Virus record (IMG/VR): IMGVR_UViG_2541047426_000030
Strand: one strand, 5' to 3'
DNA: 64,000 nt
Source: a virus
Taxonomy: Duplodnaviria > Heunggongvirae > Uroviricota > Caudoviricetes
Part shown: positions 57,001 through 63,000 of the stretch, piece after piece
Layout of the letters: the number at the start of each line of letters is the position of its first letter
Numbering within the stretch: the first letter of the stretch is position 1
Program-made: the position numbers

Positions 57001-60000
57001 GCATAAGAGGCAAGTCTGGTCAGCCGCCTATGCGACTGAACTTGCAAAAATGTTTGATGACGACATTTTACCTATCATCGGCGGCCTTGAAATTCAGGAT
57101 ATTGAGCCGATGCAACTGCTGGAAGTAATCCGCAGATTTGAAGATCGCGGGGCAATGGAGCGAGCCAACAAAGCACGCAGAAGATGCGGCGAGGTTTTCC
57201 GTTACGCTATTGTCACCGGAAGGGCTAAATATAACCCGGCACCTGACCTTGCTGAAGCCATGAAGGGATACCGCAAGAAGAACTTCCCGTTTTTACCTGC
57301 CGACCAGATCCCGGCATTCAACAAAGCACTTGCAACATTTTCAGGAAGTATCGTATCTCTCATTGCGACCAAAGTTTTACGCTACACAGCACTAAGAACG
57401 AAAGAGCTTCGTTCCATGCAATGGAAGAACGTCGATTTTGAAAACAGGATTATCACCATCGAGGCCAGTGTGATGAAGGGACGCAAGATTCATGTGGTTC
57501 CGATGTCGGACCAGGTTGTTGAACTTCTCACTACGCTAAGCTCCATCACTAAACCAGTATCAGAGTTTGTTTTTGCCGGGCGCAACGATAAGAAGAAGTC
57601 AATCTGTGAGAACGCTGTACTGCTTGTGATCAAACAAATCGGCTATGAAGGTCTGGAAAGCGGTCACGGATTCAGGCATGAATTCAGCACGATTATGAAC
57701 GAGCACGAATGGCCTGCTGACGCTATTGAAGTGCAACTAGCACATGCCAACGGCGGATCTGTGCGTGGGATTTACAACCATGCTCAGTATCTCGATAAGC
57801 GCAGAGAAATGATGCAGTGGTGGGCGGACTGGCTTGATGGGAAGGTGGAGTAGTTATTACAACGATTCTTATAAAAAAGAAAAGCCTTGCACATATAGCA
57901 AAGCTTTTCACTTCTCAGGATTTCTTACACCAAGAAACCATCAACAATAACAAAATGCAATTATTATATGTTAACTACATATGCATTTCATTAAAACCAA
58001 TCATAAATGCTTATCATACTTTAATTGCTATAATTGATTGCCTTCTATTTTTTCAACTCGAGTGGTTGAAACATCATTCTTAAATCCACTCCACCATTTT
58101 CTTAGCTTATTGTTTATTGGCTTTTCAAAAAACAAATACATCATTATTGATATAAATAATGAAGCAAACAGAGCCATTACTATAAATTTAATTACACTTA
58201 TAGCACCAAGACCAGAAACATTAAAGAACTTGCTCAATGTACTGATTACTATAGTATGGACCAAGTAAAATGAAAAAGAAGCATCACCTAAAAGTATCAT
58301 AACTTTATTTGATATTATTTTTGAAATAATACCACCATTAAACGAAAACACTAATATTGAAAAGGCCATTGATGGTATAAAAAGCGCATCATACTGTAAT
58401 CCATTGCTATTTTGACTTTTTGCCACCATATAGACAGACATTAGGATAAAGACTACAGATGATATTTCAGCAAATGATAGAACTAAATATGACGGCTTTG
58501 ACTTAAACTCAAAATCTCCGGCCTGATTGCTGCGGATTGTCTCTGCCAGCCTGCCTCGGTCAATCTCACGACCAGCCATCTTGTCCTGAACATTGAAGTA
58601 GTCAATCGGACCGAGAGCAGCCATCCCAAGGTGATAAACAAACTCACCAAACCCTGAAGGATTCTGCTGATACATCTGAGCAACGTTGTTAGGGTCAACA
58701 CCGACGCGCGCCAGTTCCTTGGCGTTGTTTTGCAGCCATGATTGCATTGCTTCTGGAGACGAGGCCGCAAGGCGTGCGCCAGCCGCTAAGGTGCCGATAG
58801 AATTGCGCTGGTCTTCGTCTGCCCACTTCATACCAGACTGAATCTTCTCTAATTGACCAGGATATTTGGTCATCAGATCTCGAACCTGCTGTCGATCGCC
58901 GGACTGGATGGCTGCCGCATATTCTTTTTGGAATGCAGCATCCGCTTCCTGTTGCTTTGCGGCTTGAGATGTTTGAGCGACACTACCAAGTCCCTGCAAC
59001 GCCTGAAGGCCGATGTTATTGCGACCTGAACGCTCCATTTCGTTGTTCTGGCGAATATAGGCCAACGCCTCACTTACATCACTTGCCTTTGGCGCATTTG
59101 AGTTTTGCCCACCGATACCAGCAAGAAAACCGCCTGAGTTGATTCCTTGTTGCCAAGTAGCCATATTCCCACCTTAAAACAATGATCCAAGACCACCGAT
59201 AACACCGCCAGCAAGAGCACCAATACCAGTCCCAATAACAGGAACTGCACTACCAATCATTGCACCTGATGCGGCCCCACCAATGGCACCTGTAGCAAAA
59301 CTCTGTAGGCCTGAAGGCTTATTCGCATTTGCTGCCGATGCTGCCGCCTGCTGTTGATACAATTGGCTGACATTGTTAGCGTAGTTCTGTCCGGCGTTTG
59401 CCTGACCTGTAAGAGCACCAAGGCCGATATTTGCCAGATTGTTGTAGTTGTTCATCTGACCTGACAGCCAGTTTTGACCGAGTGTAGGTGCGATTGCTGC
59501 TAACTGGTTTCCTGTTGCTGTAGAGCCTAATCCACCCGTTGCCTCTGCTGCTGCCAGACTCTGATAGCGCGCCTGCCCTGCAAGGTCTTTATACTGCTGA
59601 GAGTTGTAATACTGGTTAAGCGCCTGACCTTGCCCCTGAAGAGAGGAAAGATTCTGCAACTGTGATACGTACTGCTGAGCGAGTGGCGTGAACGGTGCAA
59701 GGTTTTGCATGTTCGTCTGCCACATTTCACGCTGCAGTTCGATGCCCTTTTCAGTTGCGCGTGCCTGGGCTTTAGATCCGGAGTCGCTGCCGCCTTTCAT
59801 ATACCCATTCATGGGAAGCAATTTATTCTTGAAGCTTTCGCTAAGTACTAACATTTAATAGCTCCTCATATTTCGAACGAGGTAATTGATAGAGGGTGAT
59901 TCCTACCGGTTTTCCGTTACTCATGTACGCATCATCAAGGTGACCAACACGGGTAGCGCCAAGCAAACGGATAATTGCCCGTCCGTATTTGGTGGTGTCA

Positions 60001-63000
60001 GGAACCATGGTGATGCTGTTAAGGAATGGTGAGTTTTCGAGAAGCCATTTGCAGAATAATCGATGCCCTTGTAGTGCATATTCGCCACGGAATCCGGGGT
60101 CATACACCGCATGGCATTCAACAACGCTATGCCAGAAGTTACGCACTTCATGAACTCCAGCCAGCACTAATCCTTCGTAGATGCCGAGATATACCGCATC
60201 AGGCTTGATGTAGTATTTATCTCCACTGTCTACGATATTCCCCGTGTTTACCGGGTTGTTAAGGAATTCTGCAAGTTTCACCGGGTTATCGATGAGCTTT
60301 ATTTCCATCACTGCTCCGCAATGATTTTGATGGTTGTGGCAGTAAACGCCGCGCCATTCGACTGAATGGTTAACGTGCTGCCATTTGTGGCAAGAAAGCC
60401 GTCTTTATCCACGCTGAAGAACGTAGCTAACAGGATGTTGTCGGTTGTTGTTGCCGAGTTGCGACTGCTTACTAGCGTGTCAGGAACAGAACCGGAGAAT
60501 GTTAGCTGCATTGACCTGTTGGCGGTTCCGCTGGGCCACGTCCCGACAATCGACAGCTTGAAGAACAAGGTTTTGTTCTCGTTGAACACAACCATCTTGT
60601 TGTTAACGGTGTCGAAGAATGGTGCCAACGTCCCGGATGACGGCGTAAGCGTTTTCAGCAGGCTAACAAGGTTGGTCGGCGCTGTCGGGATGGTTACTGA
60701 TACGCCAGAGTAAACAACCTCTGACTTCTTGCGCGTAGTGGCATACTCCAGAGCATTAATGCGCGTTTCATGGTCTGAAACCTGCGATTCCAGCGACTGA
60801 ACTCTGGTATCAAGCGATGCAATATCGCTTTCATTCAAGGCAATCAGTGGGTTTACGTCATGGAGTGGGCTCAACACCAGTCAGAGCCGCATGTACACGC
60901 AATAATCATGGTGAACGAAAGAAGCATTAATGGGCAAGCTGGCAAAATTGTCAGCAAATGGGTAACACTGGCAAACAATGCAATCCCATCAAATGTTCCT
61001 CCCCAGTGGGATCTAGATTTGAAAGGTCAGCAATATTCAGAGCCTACAAAGTGTATAGGTAAACAGATTGATTACATGGCAAAGCCCGAAACTAAGTTAA
61101 ATGACTTTAATAGAGAGGCGAGCAAGAGCCTATATGATTGGTCAGATGCCAACGTTTGGGGTTATTCGAATGGCTGGGCGCGGCATGAGATAAAAAAAGA
61201 AACACTTTCTATCACTGGCTTTCATGCTGTAAGACGCATACTAAAAGCCGTTCAGGCATCAAGGAAAGACAACTACAAAGCTAAGCGACAGATACAGCGT
61301 ACATTGAAACGACAAGACATAAATCGATCACCAATCACCCCGTTCCAAGCACCGTTAATTAGCAAACACGATTGGGATTTATCAGTGATAGCGGTCACCA
61401 AAGAGGCAGAGACAGAGCGCAGGGAATTACTATCCTCACAGATAATAAACTCGAACAAAGTACAAACCCACCCACTGTTAAGGATGTTAAGAAGAGCACG
61501 AGTGAGAGCATCCAGAGCCAAAAGAGAAAGCGGAGGTTATGACCATTACTACTAGTAGTGACAGATCGTGACAAGGCGGTGCAAAAAACGACCAATAATA
61601 AGAGAGATATGCCTGCCAAACCGCCAAAAGCGCGGAGCGCGGCAAACGCCGCGAGAGGCGCAAGAAGGCGAACCTATCCATTGAAACGGTCAGAAGCGCA
61701 TCGCGCTCGACGACCGAAGTCCCCACTAACACCGTTAACGAAAGATCAAAGTCTTAGAAAAAAATGACGTTTCTTTGATGGACTTCCATCCGTAAAAATC
61801 AAATTTTGAGAAAAAGTACTTATAGAAATTAATCGCTCTATAAGGATAAGTTGACGTTAGTTTAAAGTGATAAAACATTAAAGAAAAAACGTAAAATCAA
61901 ATACATAAAATAAGTCACCAAGGGATCATTTTCAGAAAACAACGTCAACGTAACGTCAACTCTGTAAGAACTTTTTTGGTCACTTTTTGGGTTGAATGTA
62001 CGTAAAAATCCCCAGCAGTGAAATTTGAGCGCGTAAGCACAATTCTGAGGGGCTTTTTGTCTGTAGGTTAGGCAGTGTAACTAACAATACAAGAAGTTAG
62101 CTCTGACTAACTATTTAATTAACTTTTCAATCTAATTGCGTTAGATATTATACCCTAACGCAATATTTTTAATTCAATAATGTCTGTAAATTGTTATTAC
62201 TTATAATTATACATTTAACTATATCTACATTGGCTGCTTCCAATTACTACTTACGTAACGGAATCTCGGATCCTCTGTTTTTGGCTCGGTATAATAAGAA
62301 TCATCAATAGTAAAGTTCGACGCTAATTTATCCCGAAGCCCACCTAAACGTTCAATGCTTGTTAGTTCGTTAGTAACATCCTTGAAAACGGTAGAAAATG
62401 CTTTATGTTGTTTAGACTTCATAAATTCAGGAGTGCTCAGTGCAAACTCTTTATCAGGCAAACCTGGAATACCCACGAGTCCTGTCAATGAATTTATACA
62501 TTTTATCAAAAAACTGCCTTGAATACCTTGATTTGATGGAACACCGTAGCTTCGTTTAATATCTCCAGATATTTTATCTAAATCACTTAGTAATTTTGTT
62601 ACTTTTTTATTTCCTGCACTTATCCCCGATTCATCGTAGGTCACATGAATCTCTCGGATTACATCTCGACACGTACGAAAATGATCATGTGTTCTAAGCT
62701 CTAAAGCTGAATTGATAACTTGAGAGACATTTCCTGTTTCGTTTGCTAGCCATGCAGAAAATATTGGTAAATCTAATGAAATAGTAGATGTGCGTCCATG
62801 ATCTACAATTTCAGATCTTGCAGTACTGATTTTATCAGACAACGATTGCACCAACCTTGCAGTATAATCATGACCAAAAGCACCTGTTTTTTTCATCCAA
62901 TGCAATTGATATGCATGCCTTATTGGATGAATAAATGAGTCTGCTTTAAAATGCTTAGCAATGACGCTGTAATAAATAGATTTATATGCCAACCAATTTA

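What the first reader, a model, noticed from the sequence alone, without database searches (positions are those of the whole stretch)
57854..61555. Degraded P22/Sf6-like virion module with a chimeric ejection-protein::acyltransferase ORF and a truncated HUH-endonuclease gene
Needle-like, gp14-like and ejection-like genes run toward intS. The last ORF (58028..59164) switches mid-reading-frame from Gln/Ala-rich virion-type sequence to a multi-pass membrane acyltransferase C-terminus encoded by AT-rich DNA, indicating a deletion fusion of an O-antigen acetylase-like gene with an ejection gene. A PHVHAII HUH-motif ORF (60860..61555) begins inside the needle gene start, suggesting further rearrangement.
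Basis: inference. Interest (0 to 1): 0.45.

Follow-up and report, generated by a model that had tools for sequence, protein, structure and literature searches.

The report
Decayed prophage Sp16 of O157:H7
This stretch is the known cryptic prophage Sp16 next to the argW tRNA gene of E. coli O157:H7: what two large deletions left of a P22-like prophage and a small neighbouring mobile element, one deletion having fused two unrelated genes in frame; it is ordinary genome decay.

Summary
The window is E. coli O157:H7, and 56456-63418 is 99.99% identical to Sakai, whose record annotates 'prophage Sp16; P22-like phage'.

**Junction 1 (58514|58515).** Codons 1-217 of a P22 gp20-type ejection gene are joined in frame to the last 161 codons of an Acyl_transf_3 gene. 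The undeleted parent arrangement (tailspike, 387-aa acyltransferase ORF, convergent intS) exists in one IMG/VR contig, and its tail is 99% identical to the remnant.

**Junction 2 (60836|60837).** A needle gene lacking its first 106 codons abuts, head to head, a rolling-circle (HUH) rep gene lacking its first 111 codons.

**Origin of the rep gene.** It does not belong to the P22-like phage. It comes from a separate 8-10 kb argW-specific element: integrase, AlpA, Rep, variable cargo, resolvase. E. coli strain 7/2 still carries the undeleted tandem array.

**Distribution.** Both junctions occur in 309 of 5,426 complete E. coli genomes each, O157:H7 plus at least one O55:H7.

The fusion protein lacks the N-terminal two thirds of the acyltransferase domain, and the Rep remnant lacks motif I, so both are most likely inert. 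Low interest. The uncharacterised Rep element and its cargo are the only leads.

The parts
56460..56534 (+). argW, tRNA-Arg(CCT). This is the attachment site used by all the elements described here.
   Evidence: ARAGORN and Rfam tRNA at 63.4 bits.
56520..56600 (+). attL of the P22-like prophage. The 16-nt core is 56520-56535, followed by the phage arm.
   Evidence: 81 nt are 100% identical to Sf6 DNA ending at its annotated attP core.
56696..57853 (+). intS integrase, apparently intact (Sakai ECs_3231).
   Evidence: Pfam Arm-DNA-bind_3, Phage_int_M and Phage_integrase. It is 96% identical in DNA to K-12 and strain 7/2 intS, and homology ends at 57851.
57879..57909 (-). Terminator-like hairpin (12 pairs plus a T run) downstream of the acyltransferase stop codon.
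   Evidence: Consensus scan only. The region is part of the AT-rich block found only in the O157/O55 lineage.
58028..58514 (-). 3' remnant of an Acyl_transf_3 gene: the last 161 codons plus the stop. It is AT-rich and encodes four hydrophobic segments.
   Evidence: 99% identical at protein level to the C-terminus of the 387-aa parent ORF in L013. It matches Pfam profile positions 215-325 of 326. Supporting data: GC 0.28 and hydropathy.
58515..59164 (-). 5' remnant of a P22 gp20-type ejection gene (codons 1-217). With the previous part it forms the 378-aa chimeric ORF ECs_3232.
   Evidence: 211 of 217 residues are identical to the 433-aa gp20 homologue of phage vB_EcoP-720R6. Junction sequence on the coding strand is ...GGAGA|TTTTGAG..., with 1 nt of microhomology and a hybrid codon GAT.
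59174..59854 (-). gp7-type ejection gene, full length (ECs_3233).
   Evidence: Pfam P22_gp7, E 5.7e-90. It has the same 681-nt length as the gene in 720R6.
59841..60311 (-). gp14-like gene (DUF2824), full length (ECs_3234).
   Evidence: Pfam DUF2824, E 8e-65; phrog_651.
60308..60836 (-). Needle (gp26/Sf6 gene 9-type) remnant. It retains Sf6 codons 107-282 (the knob) and lacks the N-terminal 106 codons (ECs_3235, pseudogene).
   Evidence: 94% DNA identity to Sf6 gene 9, ending exactly at 60836. RefSeq marks it as a pseudogene missing the N-terminus.
60837..61555 (+). 3' remnant of a rolling-circle HUH rep gene (codons 112-350 of 350). The first ATG, at 60860, is codon 120 (ECs_3236). It retains the HUH and Tyr motifs and lacks motif I.
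   Evidence: Identical over the first 64 nt and 93.6% identical over 1,238 nt to the intact rep gene of E. coli strain 7/2, starting at 60837. It is 97% identical to the 350-aa P0002. Motifs come from alignment A3.
61556..62062 (+). Non-coding backbone of the Rep element downstream of rep. It is AT-rich with inverted ACGTCAAC repeats at 61849-61961. A role as a replication origin is an untested guess.
   Evidence: Conserved at 93.6% with strain 7/2 up to 62062; repeats.
62225..63637 (-). Cargo gene of the Rep element: a 470-aa protein of unknown function (ECs_3238).
   Evidence: It lies between rep and the resolvase, where other copies of the element carry different genes. No Pfam, NCBIfam or PADLOC match. 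Homologues at 54-86% identity occur across Proteobacteria.
63824..64000 (-). 58-aa ORF belonging to the conserved backbone of the Rep element. The resolvase and the 16-nt argW repeat (attR) lie just beyond the window, at about 64303-64929 and 65064-65079.
   Evidence: 83% DNA identity to strain 7/2 from 63793. Resolvase; the repeat at L001 20665-20680.

Best explanation
The region is the cryptic prophage Sp16 of the O157:H7/O55:H7 lineage. It is the relic of two mobile elements that once sat in tandem at the 3' end of argW.

1. An Sf6/P22-like (Lederbergvirus) prophage of about 39 kb. From argW it read: intS, then on the opposite strand an acyltransferase moron, tailspike, gp16, gp20, gp7, gp14, needle, and the remaining genes out to the early-left region and torI.
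2. An 8-10 kb integrative element with the order integrase, AlpA, small ORFs, HUH rolling-circle Rep, variable cargo, resolvase. It is bounded by repeats of the argW 3' end (16 nt in O157, 23-24 nt elsewhere).

Two illegitimate deletions produced what is seen.

- **Deletion 1** (about 9 kb in the one undeleted relative). It removed the 3' half of gp20, gp16, the immI-like region, the tailspike and the first ~226 codons of the 387-codon acyltransferase ORF. The stumps happened to join in frame, giving the 378-aa ORF.
- **Deletion 2** (about 31.5 kb by analogy with strain 7/2). It removed everything from needle codon 106 through the rest of the prophage, the hybrid att site, and the second element's integrase, AlpA and small ORFs, up to rep codon 111.

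What is shown: both junctions, the parents of all four stumps, and the undeleted tandem architecture in other strains.

What is inferred: the remnants are functionally inert. The late promoter is gone. The first two thirds of the acyltransferase domain is gone. The needle's N-terminal 106 residues are gone. Rep motif I is gone.
For: **Identity.**
- The window is 100% identical to many O157:H7 genomes.
- 56456-63418 is 99.99% identical to Sakai, where the record annotates 'prophage Sp16; P22-like phage'.

**Junction 1.**
- Megablast of 57854-58560 splits at query position 661/662. Only 309 genomes span it; about 500 others match only the gp20 side.
- Even sensitive blastn finds the AT-rich piece only in those 309 genomes.
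- The three-way alignment shows 1 nt of microhomology and a hybrid codon.
- The undeleted parent is in L013/L018.

**Junction 2.**
- A 201-nt probe is spanned in 309 genomes. Others match only positions 1-97 (needle knob) or only 98-201 (rolling-circle rep).
- The base-level junction is shown.

**Tandem architecture.**
- E. coli strain 7/2 has argW-intS, then a complete P22-like prophage in the same orientation.
- After torI comes the 16-nt att core, then integrase, HTH protein, rep, cargo and resolvase.
- A 23-nt argW repeat follows, then DUF4942 and the csc genes.

**The Rep element exists on its own.** In Klebsiella it sits at argW with a 24-nt flanking repeat.

**Independent decay of the same array elsewhere.** Other E. 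coli carry Rad52::Rep and Int::Rep fusions.

**Rep is an HUH enzyme.**
- Family-invariant residues are G80/T86, P129-H130-x-H132 and Y191-x-x-K194.
- Pfam REP_ORF2-G2P scores 29.7 bits against a cut-off of 27.8.
- The top structural matches are HUH nucleases.
Against: - No genome was found with only one of the two deletions, so their order, and whether each was a single event, is not established.
- The undeleted acyltransferase-bearing phage (L018) has a mosaic, only partly similar gp20/gp7 region. It is therefore a relative of the ancestor, not the ancestor itself.
- Inertness of the fusion protein and of the intact-looking gp7 and gp14 ORFs is inferred, not tested. RefSeq still annotates the chimera as an intact 'phage DNA ejection protein'.
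- The promoter scan is uninformative: 9 sites found against 8.3 expected.
Confidence: 0.93

Rival explanations
1. The chimeric ORF is a selected, functional protein. For example, the soluble N-terminal domain of ejection protein gp20, anchored in the inner membrane by four acyltransferase helices, might act as a decoy or superinfection-exclusion factor against P22-like phages.
For: - The ORF is open and uninterrupted in 309 genomes, including at least one O55:H7.
- The neighbouring gp7 and gp14 ORFs are also intact.
- A native terminator-like hairpin is retained.
Against: - The lineage is young, with at least 99% identity across all copies, so an open frame carries no evidence of selection.
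- An in-frame join is expected by chance about one time in three, and the downstream frame is the parent's own frame.
- The architecture is confined to one clone.
- The late promoter region was deleted, and no promoter excess is seen.
- Similar accidental fusions occur in other decayed argW arrays.
Confidence: 0.04
2. The whole 8.5-kb island derives from one mosaic P22-like phage that itself carried the rep gene, the 470-aa gene and the resolvase. The label 'Sp16; P22-like phage' implies this.
For: - The Sakai record draws a single prophage feature over the whole island.
- Asadulghani et al. 2009 score Sp16 as having a 'defective' replication function (PMC2669165).
Against: - In strain 7/2 and in Klebsiella the rep-cargo-resolvase block has its own integrase and its own flanking argW repeats. 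It is separated from the P22-like prophage by an att core.
- The complete P22-like prophage of strain 7/2 has its own replication genes and no HUH rep.
Confidence: 0.02
3. The rep gene arrived by insertion of an HUH-driven mobile element (IS91/ISCR-like or a rolling-circle plasmid) into the needle gene.
For: The rep gene abuts the needle gene with no spacer. HUH enzymes do drive such elements (general knowledge).
Against: - The rep gene is itself 5'-truncated at codon 112, so it cannot be the inserting end of an element.
- The DNA on its 3' side is colinear with the integrase-borne element up to the argW repeat.
- No needle sequence resumes on the other side.
Confidence: 0.01

Closest known systems
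Sakai prophage Sp16 (ECs_3231-ECs_3238), annotated 'P22-like phage' in NC_002695.2 and discussed by Asadulghani et al. 2009 (PMC2669165)
   Same: It is the same locus: 99.99% identity from 4 nt upstream of argW onward. The literature already lists it as severely degraded, non-excising and non-packaged, with integrase present and replication 'defective'.
   Different: The record treats it as one prophage and annotates ECs_3232 as an ordinary injection protein. Here it is resolved into two elements and two base-exact deletion junctions. In the window's strain, unlike Sakai, a Stx2a prophage lies immediately upstream of argW.
Shigella phage Sf6 (Lederbergvirus), virion-gene to oac to int region
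   Same: - Same gene order: needle (gene 9), gene 10 (gp14), 11 (gp7), 12 (gp20), 13 (gp16), 14 (tailspike).
- An O-antigen-type acyltransferase moron lies between tailspike and int.
- Same IntS-type integrase and argW attP; 81 nt of the arm are identical.
- The needle knob is 94% identical in DNA.
   Different: - Sf6 oac is transcribed with int and against the virion genes. Here the acyltransferase is co-directional with the virion genes.
- The two acyltransferases are not detectably similar.
- Sf6 is complete; this is about 3 kb of stumps.
CPS-53 (KpLE1) of E. coli K-12
   Same: Same attachment site and a 96% identical intS. Both are decayed prophages at argW.
   Different: Nothing beyond intS is shared. 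CPS-53 carries gtrABS and different remnants.
HUH rolling-circle replication initiators (Pfam REP_ORF2-G2P; RefSeq name 'rolling circle replication-associated protein')
   Same: The intact homologues have motif I, the HUH motif and a single catalytic Tyr. They pass the Pfam cut-off and are modelled with a fold whose best matches are HUH nucleases.
   Different: - The window copy lacks the first 111 codons, including motif I, and gets no Pfam hit.
- The family is small: 21 clusters at E no higher than 1e-3 among 1.84 billion representatives.
- It is chromosomally integrated with a tyrosine integrase rather than plasmid- or phage-borne.
Small integrase-AlpA islands (PICI-type phage satellites; integrative mobilizable elements)
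   Same: The intact Rep element has integrase, an AlpA-family HTH protein, small ORFs, a replication initiator and accessory cargo. It is 8-10 kb, sits in a tRNA gene, and lies next to a helper-sized prophage.
   Different: - The replication initiator is an HUH Rep. From memory, described Gram-negative PICIs carry a primase-helicase instead; this was not checked here.
- No packaging or capsid-remodelling genes were recognised.
- The element ends in a serine resolvase.
- Neither helper dependence nor mobilisation was tested.

Membership tests
Sakai prophage Sp16 | Same chromosomal locus (argW to csc) and same sequence as the annotated Sp16 feature | tested here: met
   Window 56456-63418 is 99.99% identical to NC_002695.2 across the annotated 'prophage Sp16; P22-like phage'.
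P22-like (Lederbergvirus) prophage | Syntenic late-operon block: needle, gp14, gp7, gp20 | tested here: met
   Pfam Phage_tail_NK, DUF2824, P22_gp7 and Inj_translocase occur in that order on one strand. DNA identity is 90-95% to Sf6-type phages over 58515-60836.
P22-like (Lederbergvirus) prophage | Complete virion, lysis, replication and immunity modules (a functional prophage) | tested here: not met
   Only about 2.3 kb of phage-homologous DNA remains between the two junctions. Compare the complete prophage of strain 7/2.
P22-like (Lederbergvirus) prophage | IntS-type integrase with an Sf6/HK620-type attP at the 3' end of argW | tested here: met
   intS domains. The 81-nt arm is 100% identical to Sf6 up to its annotated attP core.
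Acyl_transf_3 membrane acyltransferases (Oac/OafA type) | Full-length ~326-position Acyl_transf_3 domain above the Pfam cut-off | tested here: not met
   The chimera matches only profile positions 215-325 at 25.9 bits, below 31. The undeleted parent ORF matches positions 3-325 at 101.5 bits.
Acyl_transf_3 membrane acyltransferases (Oac/OafA type) | Derivation from a member of the family | tested here: met
   The last 161 residues are 99% identical to the C-terminus of the 387-aa parent ORF.
Acyl_transf_3 membrane acyltransferases (Oac/OafA type) | O-antigen acetylation activity | not testable with these tools
   Family assignment only. There is no similarity to Sf6 Oac, and the nearest phage homologue is 38% identical.
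HUH endonuclease / rolling-circle Rep | HUH metal-binding motif (motif II) | tested here: met
   PHVHAII lies at residues 10-16 of the window ORF. P129, H130 and H132 are invariant in 15 family members.
HUH endonuclease / rolling-circle Rep | Catalytic Tyr motif (motif III, YxxK) | tested here: met
   IDYMAKP is retained. Y191 and K194 are invariant.
HUH endonuclease / rolling-circle Rep | Motif I strand (uuTuT) and a complete nuclease domain | tested here: not met
   Motif I (G80...T86 of P0002) lies in the deleted first 111 codons. The window ORF has no Pfam hit.
HUH endonuclease / rolling-circle Rep | HUH fold of the intact homologue | tested here: inconclusive
   The AF2 model has mean pLDDT 69. 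Foldseek top hits are mostly HUH nucleases (parvovirus NS1, AAV Rep, RAYT, IS200/IS608 TnpA, circovirus Rep), but with E 3e-3 to 0.1 and TM no higher than 0.54. The profile search against PDB sequences is not significant.
Phage satellite (PICI-like) or integrative mobilizable element, for the intact Rep element | Integrase plus AlpA plus replication initiator, in a small tRNA-integrated island bounded by direct repeats | tested here: met
   Shown for Klebsiella L004 and E. coli strain 7/2 L015.
Phage satellite (PICI-like) or integrative mobilizable element, for the intact Rep element | Helper-dependent induction and packaging, or conjugative mobilisation (relaxase/oriT) | not tested
   The only hint is a sub-threshold Pfam Relaxase hit, 17.5 bits against a cut-off of 24.6. 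No packaging genes were recognised.

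The most novel reading that the evidence does not exclude
The right-hand part of Sp16 (truncated rep, 470-aa gene, 58-aa ORF, resolvase) may be a relic of a family of 8-10 kb argW-specific elements that I did not find described. Their order is integrase, AlpA, HUH rolling-circle Rep, variable cargo slot, serine resolvase.

- They stack in tandem behind P22-like prophages in E. coli and occur alone in Klebsiella.
- They could be satellites of P22-like phages or mobilizable islands.
- Their swappable cargo slot may carry anti-phage or other competition genes. 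In O157 the cargo is a 470-aa protein conserved at 54-86% identity across Proteobacteria, with no recognisable domain or fold.
Probability: 0.3. Interest if true: 0.45.

Novelty: already known. Interest (0 to 1): 0.15.

Why it matters
**The finding itself.** It matters little for biology. It is a textbook case of prophage decay in a much-studied pathogen genome, at a locus already catalogued as Sp16.

**Annotation.**
- ECs_3232 and its RefSeq equivalent WP_000257010.1 are labelled as an ordinary 'phage DNA ejection/injection protein' but are a deletion fusion.
- A PHROG family (28221) appears to consist of this chimera.
- 'Sp16; P22-like phage' lumps together two elements.

**Genome evolution.** The base-exact reconstruction shows argW in this strain as a triple-use hotspot: a Stx2a phage on its 5' side, and a P22-like prophage and a Rep element at its 3' end. 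Tandem arrays at this site decay repeatedly by large illegitimate deletions that create fused ORFs.

**The forward-looking lead.** This is the intact Rep element and its cargo slot, not the remnant.

Tried and rejected
**Searches for an intact copy of the acyltransferase that found nothing useful.**
- The word-indexed protein search with the C-terminal 161 residues returned only a partial copy of the same protein.
- The scan of GTDB species representatives found nothing.
- Sensitive blastn against complete E. coli genomes found only the 309 fused copies.
- tblastn against phages found only TL-2011b at 38% identity.
- The intact parent emerged only from IMG/VR, after I noticed that L013 did not continue into gp20.

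**Other dead ends.**
- The first attempt to translate the C-terminal piece was in the wrong frame.
- Sf6 Oac as the source of the acyltransferase was rejected; there is no similarity.
- CPS-53 as a close relative was rejected; only argW and intS are shared.
- Sequence and profile searches of the Rep against PDB gave nothing significant.
- NCBIfam and PADLOC gave nothing credible for the chimera, the Rep or the 470-aa protein.
- The 470-aa protein's model has pLDDT 59, and Foldseek against PDB gave only noise.
- The promoter/terminator scan did not exceed chance.
- Rfam found only the tRNA.
- Literature searches for a described argW satellite or rolling-circle integrative element returned nothing.

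Full report
**What the window is.** The region is 100% identical to many complete E. coli O157:H7 genomes (TW14359, EC4115, SS17 and others). From 56456 onward it is 99.99% identical to strain Sakai, whose record annotates the stretch after argW as 'prophage Sp16; P22-like phage' with genes ECs_3231-ECs_3238. The tRNA at 56460-56534 is argW, tRNA-Arg(CCT).

Asadulghani et al. 2009 (PMC2669165) list Sp16 among four Sakai prophages too disrupted to assign to a family. They score integrase as present and replication as 'defective', and found no excision or packaging. The object is therefore known. What follows is a finer dissection.

**Checking the observation.** On the minus strand, running toward intS (56696-57853, +), lie four ORFs:
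- a needle-knob ORF (60308-60877; Phage_tail_NK, E 1.7e-117);
- a gp14-like ORF (59841-60311; DUF2824);
- a gp7-type ejection gene (59174-59854; P22_gp7);
- a 378-aa ORF (58028-59164).

The 378-aa ORF matches Inj_translocase (P22 gp20 N-terminal domain) over residues 12-217. Residues 230-343 match only the last third of Acyl_transf_3: profile positions 215-325 of 326, at 25.9 bits, below the cut-off of 31. PHROGs agree. Residues 1-217 align to positions 1-217 of 435-509-position ejection-protein families, and residues 219-364 align to positions 224-368 of a 372-position O-acetyltransferase family. GC drops from about 0.50 to 0.28 at the switch. The C-terminal 161 residues contain four hydrophobic segments, and the N-terminal 217 contain none.

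**Junction 1 (58514|58515).**
- A 707-nt probe across the switch is spanned in 309 complete genomes. About 500 other genomes match only from probe position 662 onward, which is the gp20 side.
- Even word-11 blastn finds the AT-rich piece (57854-58520) only in those 309 genomes, all at 99% identity or more, including at least one O55:H7 (DEC5B).
- Residues 1-217 are 97% identical to the 433-aa gp20 homologue of phage vB_EcoP-720R6.
- The other parent came from IMG/VR. Contig UViG_2545824644_000015 (L013/L018) carries a P22-type tailspike (846 aa, Head_binding domain). Next to it is a 387-aa acyltransferase ORF (Acyl_transf_3, 101.5 bits over profile positions 3-325 of 326), followed by a convergent intS. 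The last 161 residues of that ORF are 99% identical to the O157 remnant.
- On the coding strand the three sequences read: gp20 ...GGCTGGAGA|AGCACT, acyltransferase ...AACTATA|TTTTGAG, O157 ...GGCCGGAGA|TTTTGAG. That is a single shared base and a hybrid codon, GAT = D217.
- In L018 the two end points are 9,010 bp apart.

This is an illegitimate deletion that removed five things: the gp20 3' half, gp16, an immI-like region, the tailspike, and the first ~226 codons of the acyltransferase ORF. An in-frame outcome has roughly a one-in-three prior, so it is not remarkable.

**Junction 2 (60836|60837).**
- Homology to Sf6-type needle genes stops at 60836.
- Homology to an intact rolling-circle rep gene starts at 60837.
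- A 201-nt probe is spanned in 309 genomes. Others match only positions 1-97 ('tail needle knob protein') or only 98-201 ('rolling circle replication-associated protein').
- The needle is cut at Sf6 codon 107 and the rep gene at codon 112, with no microhomology.
- The GTG 'start' of the needle ORF at 60877, and its overlap with the rep ATG at 60860, is therefore a reading of antisense rep DNA and not a real gene start.

**The HUH gene.**
- The intact protein (P0002, 350 aa, 97% identical over all 231 residues of the window ORF) passes Pfam REP_ORF2-G2P narrowly, at 29.7 bits against 27.8.
- An exhaustive HMMER search found only 21 clusters at E no higher than 1e-3 among 1.84 billion representatives.
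- In an alignment of 15 members the invariant residues include G80 and T86 (motif I), P129-H130-x-H132 (HUH) and Y191-x-x-K194 (catalytic Tyr).
- An AlphaFold model (pLDDT 69) retrieves mostly HUH nucleases at the top of a Foldseek search of the PDB. The scores are weak, with best E 2.7e-3.
- The window copy keeps the HUH and Tyr motifs but has lost motif I and everything upstream, and gets no Pfam hit.

'Truncated HUH endonuclease gene' is correct.

**Where the rep gene comes from.** It is not a P22-like gene.
- In Klebsiella, a 55%-identical Rep sits in an element of about 8 kb inserted at tRNA-Arg(CCT) and bounded by a 24-nt repeat of the tRNA 3' end. The gene order is a 428-aa integrase, a 246-aa ORF, AlpA, small ORFs, Rep, cargo and a 208-aa resolvase.
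- In E. coli, 224 complete genomes match at least 80% of a probe covering the 5' third of the rep gene and its upstream region, the part missing from O157.
- Strain 7/2 shows the undeleted form of the O157 locus. It has argW, intS, two morons, and then a complete P22-like prophage in the same orientation as the O157 stumps.
- That prophage runs from tailspike, gp16, gp20, gp7, gp14 and needle out to the early-left genes and torI.
- Then come the 16-nt Sf6-type att core, the element's integrase, an HTH protein, Rep, cargo, a 58-aa ORF and the resolvase.
- A 23-nt argW repeat follows, then a DUF4942 fragment and the csc genes.
- O157 has the same right-hand end: 58-aa ORF, resolvase, a 16-nt argW repeat, DUF4942, csc.
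- In strain 7/2 the two end points of junction 2 lie about 31.5 kb apart (coordinates).
- The left end of the O157 island carries 81 nt identical to the Sf6 attP arm.

Sp16 is thus the remains of a P22-like prophage and a Rep element in tandem, reduced by two deletions to 8.5 kb.

**Same process elsewhere.** Other E. coli lineages show independent deletions ending in the same rep gene.
- One fuses the element's own integrase (residues 1-170, 99% identical) to the Rep C-terminus.
- Another fuses a Rad52-family recombinase to the Rep C-terminus. It sits in a decayed argW array that still has intS, two Acyl_transf_3 genes, a tailspike stump, mnt/arc and a gp16 stump.

Acyltransferase morons next to intS, and fused ORFs at deletion scars, are evidently routine at this site.

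**How it 'works'.** Most likely it does not.
- The late promoter and all regulators are deleted.
- The acyltransferase stump lacks the first two thirds of its domain.
- The gp20 stump lacks its C-terminal half.
- The needle lacks its N-terminal 106 residues.
- Rep lacks motif I.
- intS appears intact, but the literature reports no excision.
- The promoter scan is at chance level.

I give about 4% to the idea that the membrane-anchored gp20 domain has been co-opted, for example for exclusion of P22-like phages. The open frame in a young clone is no evidence for it.

- Sf6 shares the gene order, integrase type and att site. Its oac gene is on the other strand and is unrelated in sequence beyond the Pfam family.
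- CPS-53 shares only argW and intS.
- The end-to-end PHROG hit (phrog_28221, 378 positions, 891 bits) is, by inference, a family made of this chimera and does not refute the fusion.

**Verdict.** The feature is already known as Sp16 and is ordinary decay, so interest is low (0.15). The only part worth further work is the intact Rep element and its variable cargo slot.

Noticed in passing
window ~30302 to 56455 and further left; stx2A start at 30302-30331 (-), integrase at 55095-56339 (-): A lambdoid Stx2a prophage lies immediately upstream of argW.
- Homology to non-lysogens (Sakai, K-12, strain 7/2) begins at 56456, 4 nt before the tRNA.
- This strain therefore has the Stx2a phage at argW, as described for EC4115/TW14359-type strains (PMC3519850).
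- argW is used on its 5' side by the Stx phage and at its 3' end by the P22-like prophage and the Rep element.
   Followed up: partly
window 62225-63637 (-): The 470-aa cargo protein (ECs_3238) belongs to a tightly conserved family (54-86% identity, nearly all 450-475 aa).
- The family is scattered across Dickeya, Vibrio, Salmonella, Shewanella, Pseudomonas, Aeromonas, Chromobacterium and metagenomes.
- It has no Pfam, NCBIfam or PADLOC match and no structural match (model pLDDT 59).
- In Stutzerimonas it sits beside a 320-aa tyrosine recombinase, possibly an integron integrase (my inference from its Pfam domains), in what looks like a cassette array.
- It is a candidate accessory or defence gene of unknown function.
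   Followed up: partly
between rep and resolvase: window 62063-63792; L015 13017-16948; L004 11045-13800; L095 9769-12100: The slot between the conserved post-rep region and the 58-aa ORF/resolvase carries different genes in each copy of the element:
- the 470-aa protein in O157;
- 330-aa and 821-aa hypotheticals in strain 7/2;
- an HNH_2 protein plus two small ORFs in Klebsiella;
- a ParA-like ATPase in another E. coli.

This is a variable-cargo hotspot pattern.
   Followed up: partly
window 61742-62010: An AT-rich non-coding stretch downstream of rep is conserved with strain 7/2. It contains inverted ACGTCAAC/GTTGACGT repeats (61849-61868 against 61942-61961) and A-rich direct repeats of about 23 nt. 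It could be the element's replication origin; this is untested.
   Followed up: no
P0007 (L095 9001-9768) and P0012: Other E. coli carry independent in-frame fusions ending in the same rep gene: Rad52-family::Rep and the element's integrase::Rep. Deletion scars in argW tandem arrays therefore recur.
   Followed up: partly
window 58028-59164 (-): phrog_28221 is a 378-position profile that matches the chimera end to end at 891 bits. RefSeq names the protein 'phage DNA ejection protein'. A deletion-fusion product appears to have become a database 'family' and carries a misleading product name.
   Followed up: no
window 62100-62518, compared with NZ_CP038389.1 (O55:H7 DEC5B): In O55:H7 DEC5B the match to 62100-63800 starts only at probe position 420. 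The 3' end of the 470-aa gene and the DNA downstream of it therefore differ or are missing in that lineage.
   Followed up: no
L008 (ON470605.1, phage vB_EcoP-720R6) 1-1900: This 'phage' record includes host genes (an aminotransferase and a kinase inhibitor) and an 82-nt fragment matching the 3' end of intS (window 57770-57851). It appears to be a prophage excerpt with host flanks.
   Followed up: no
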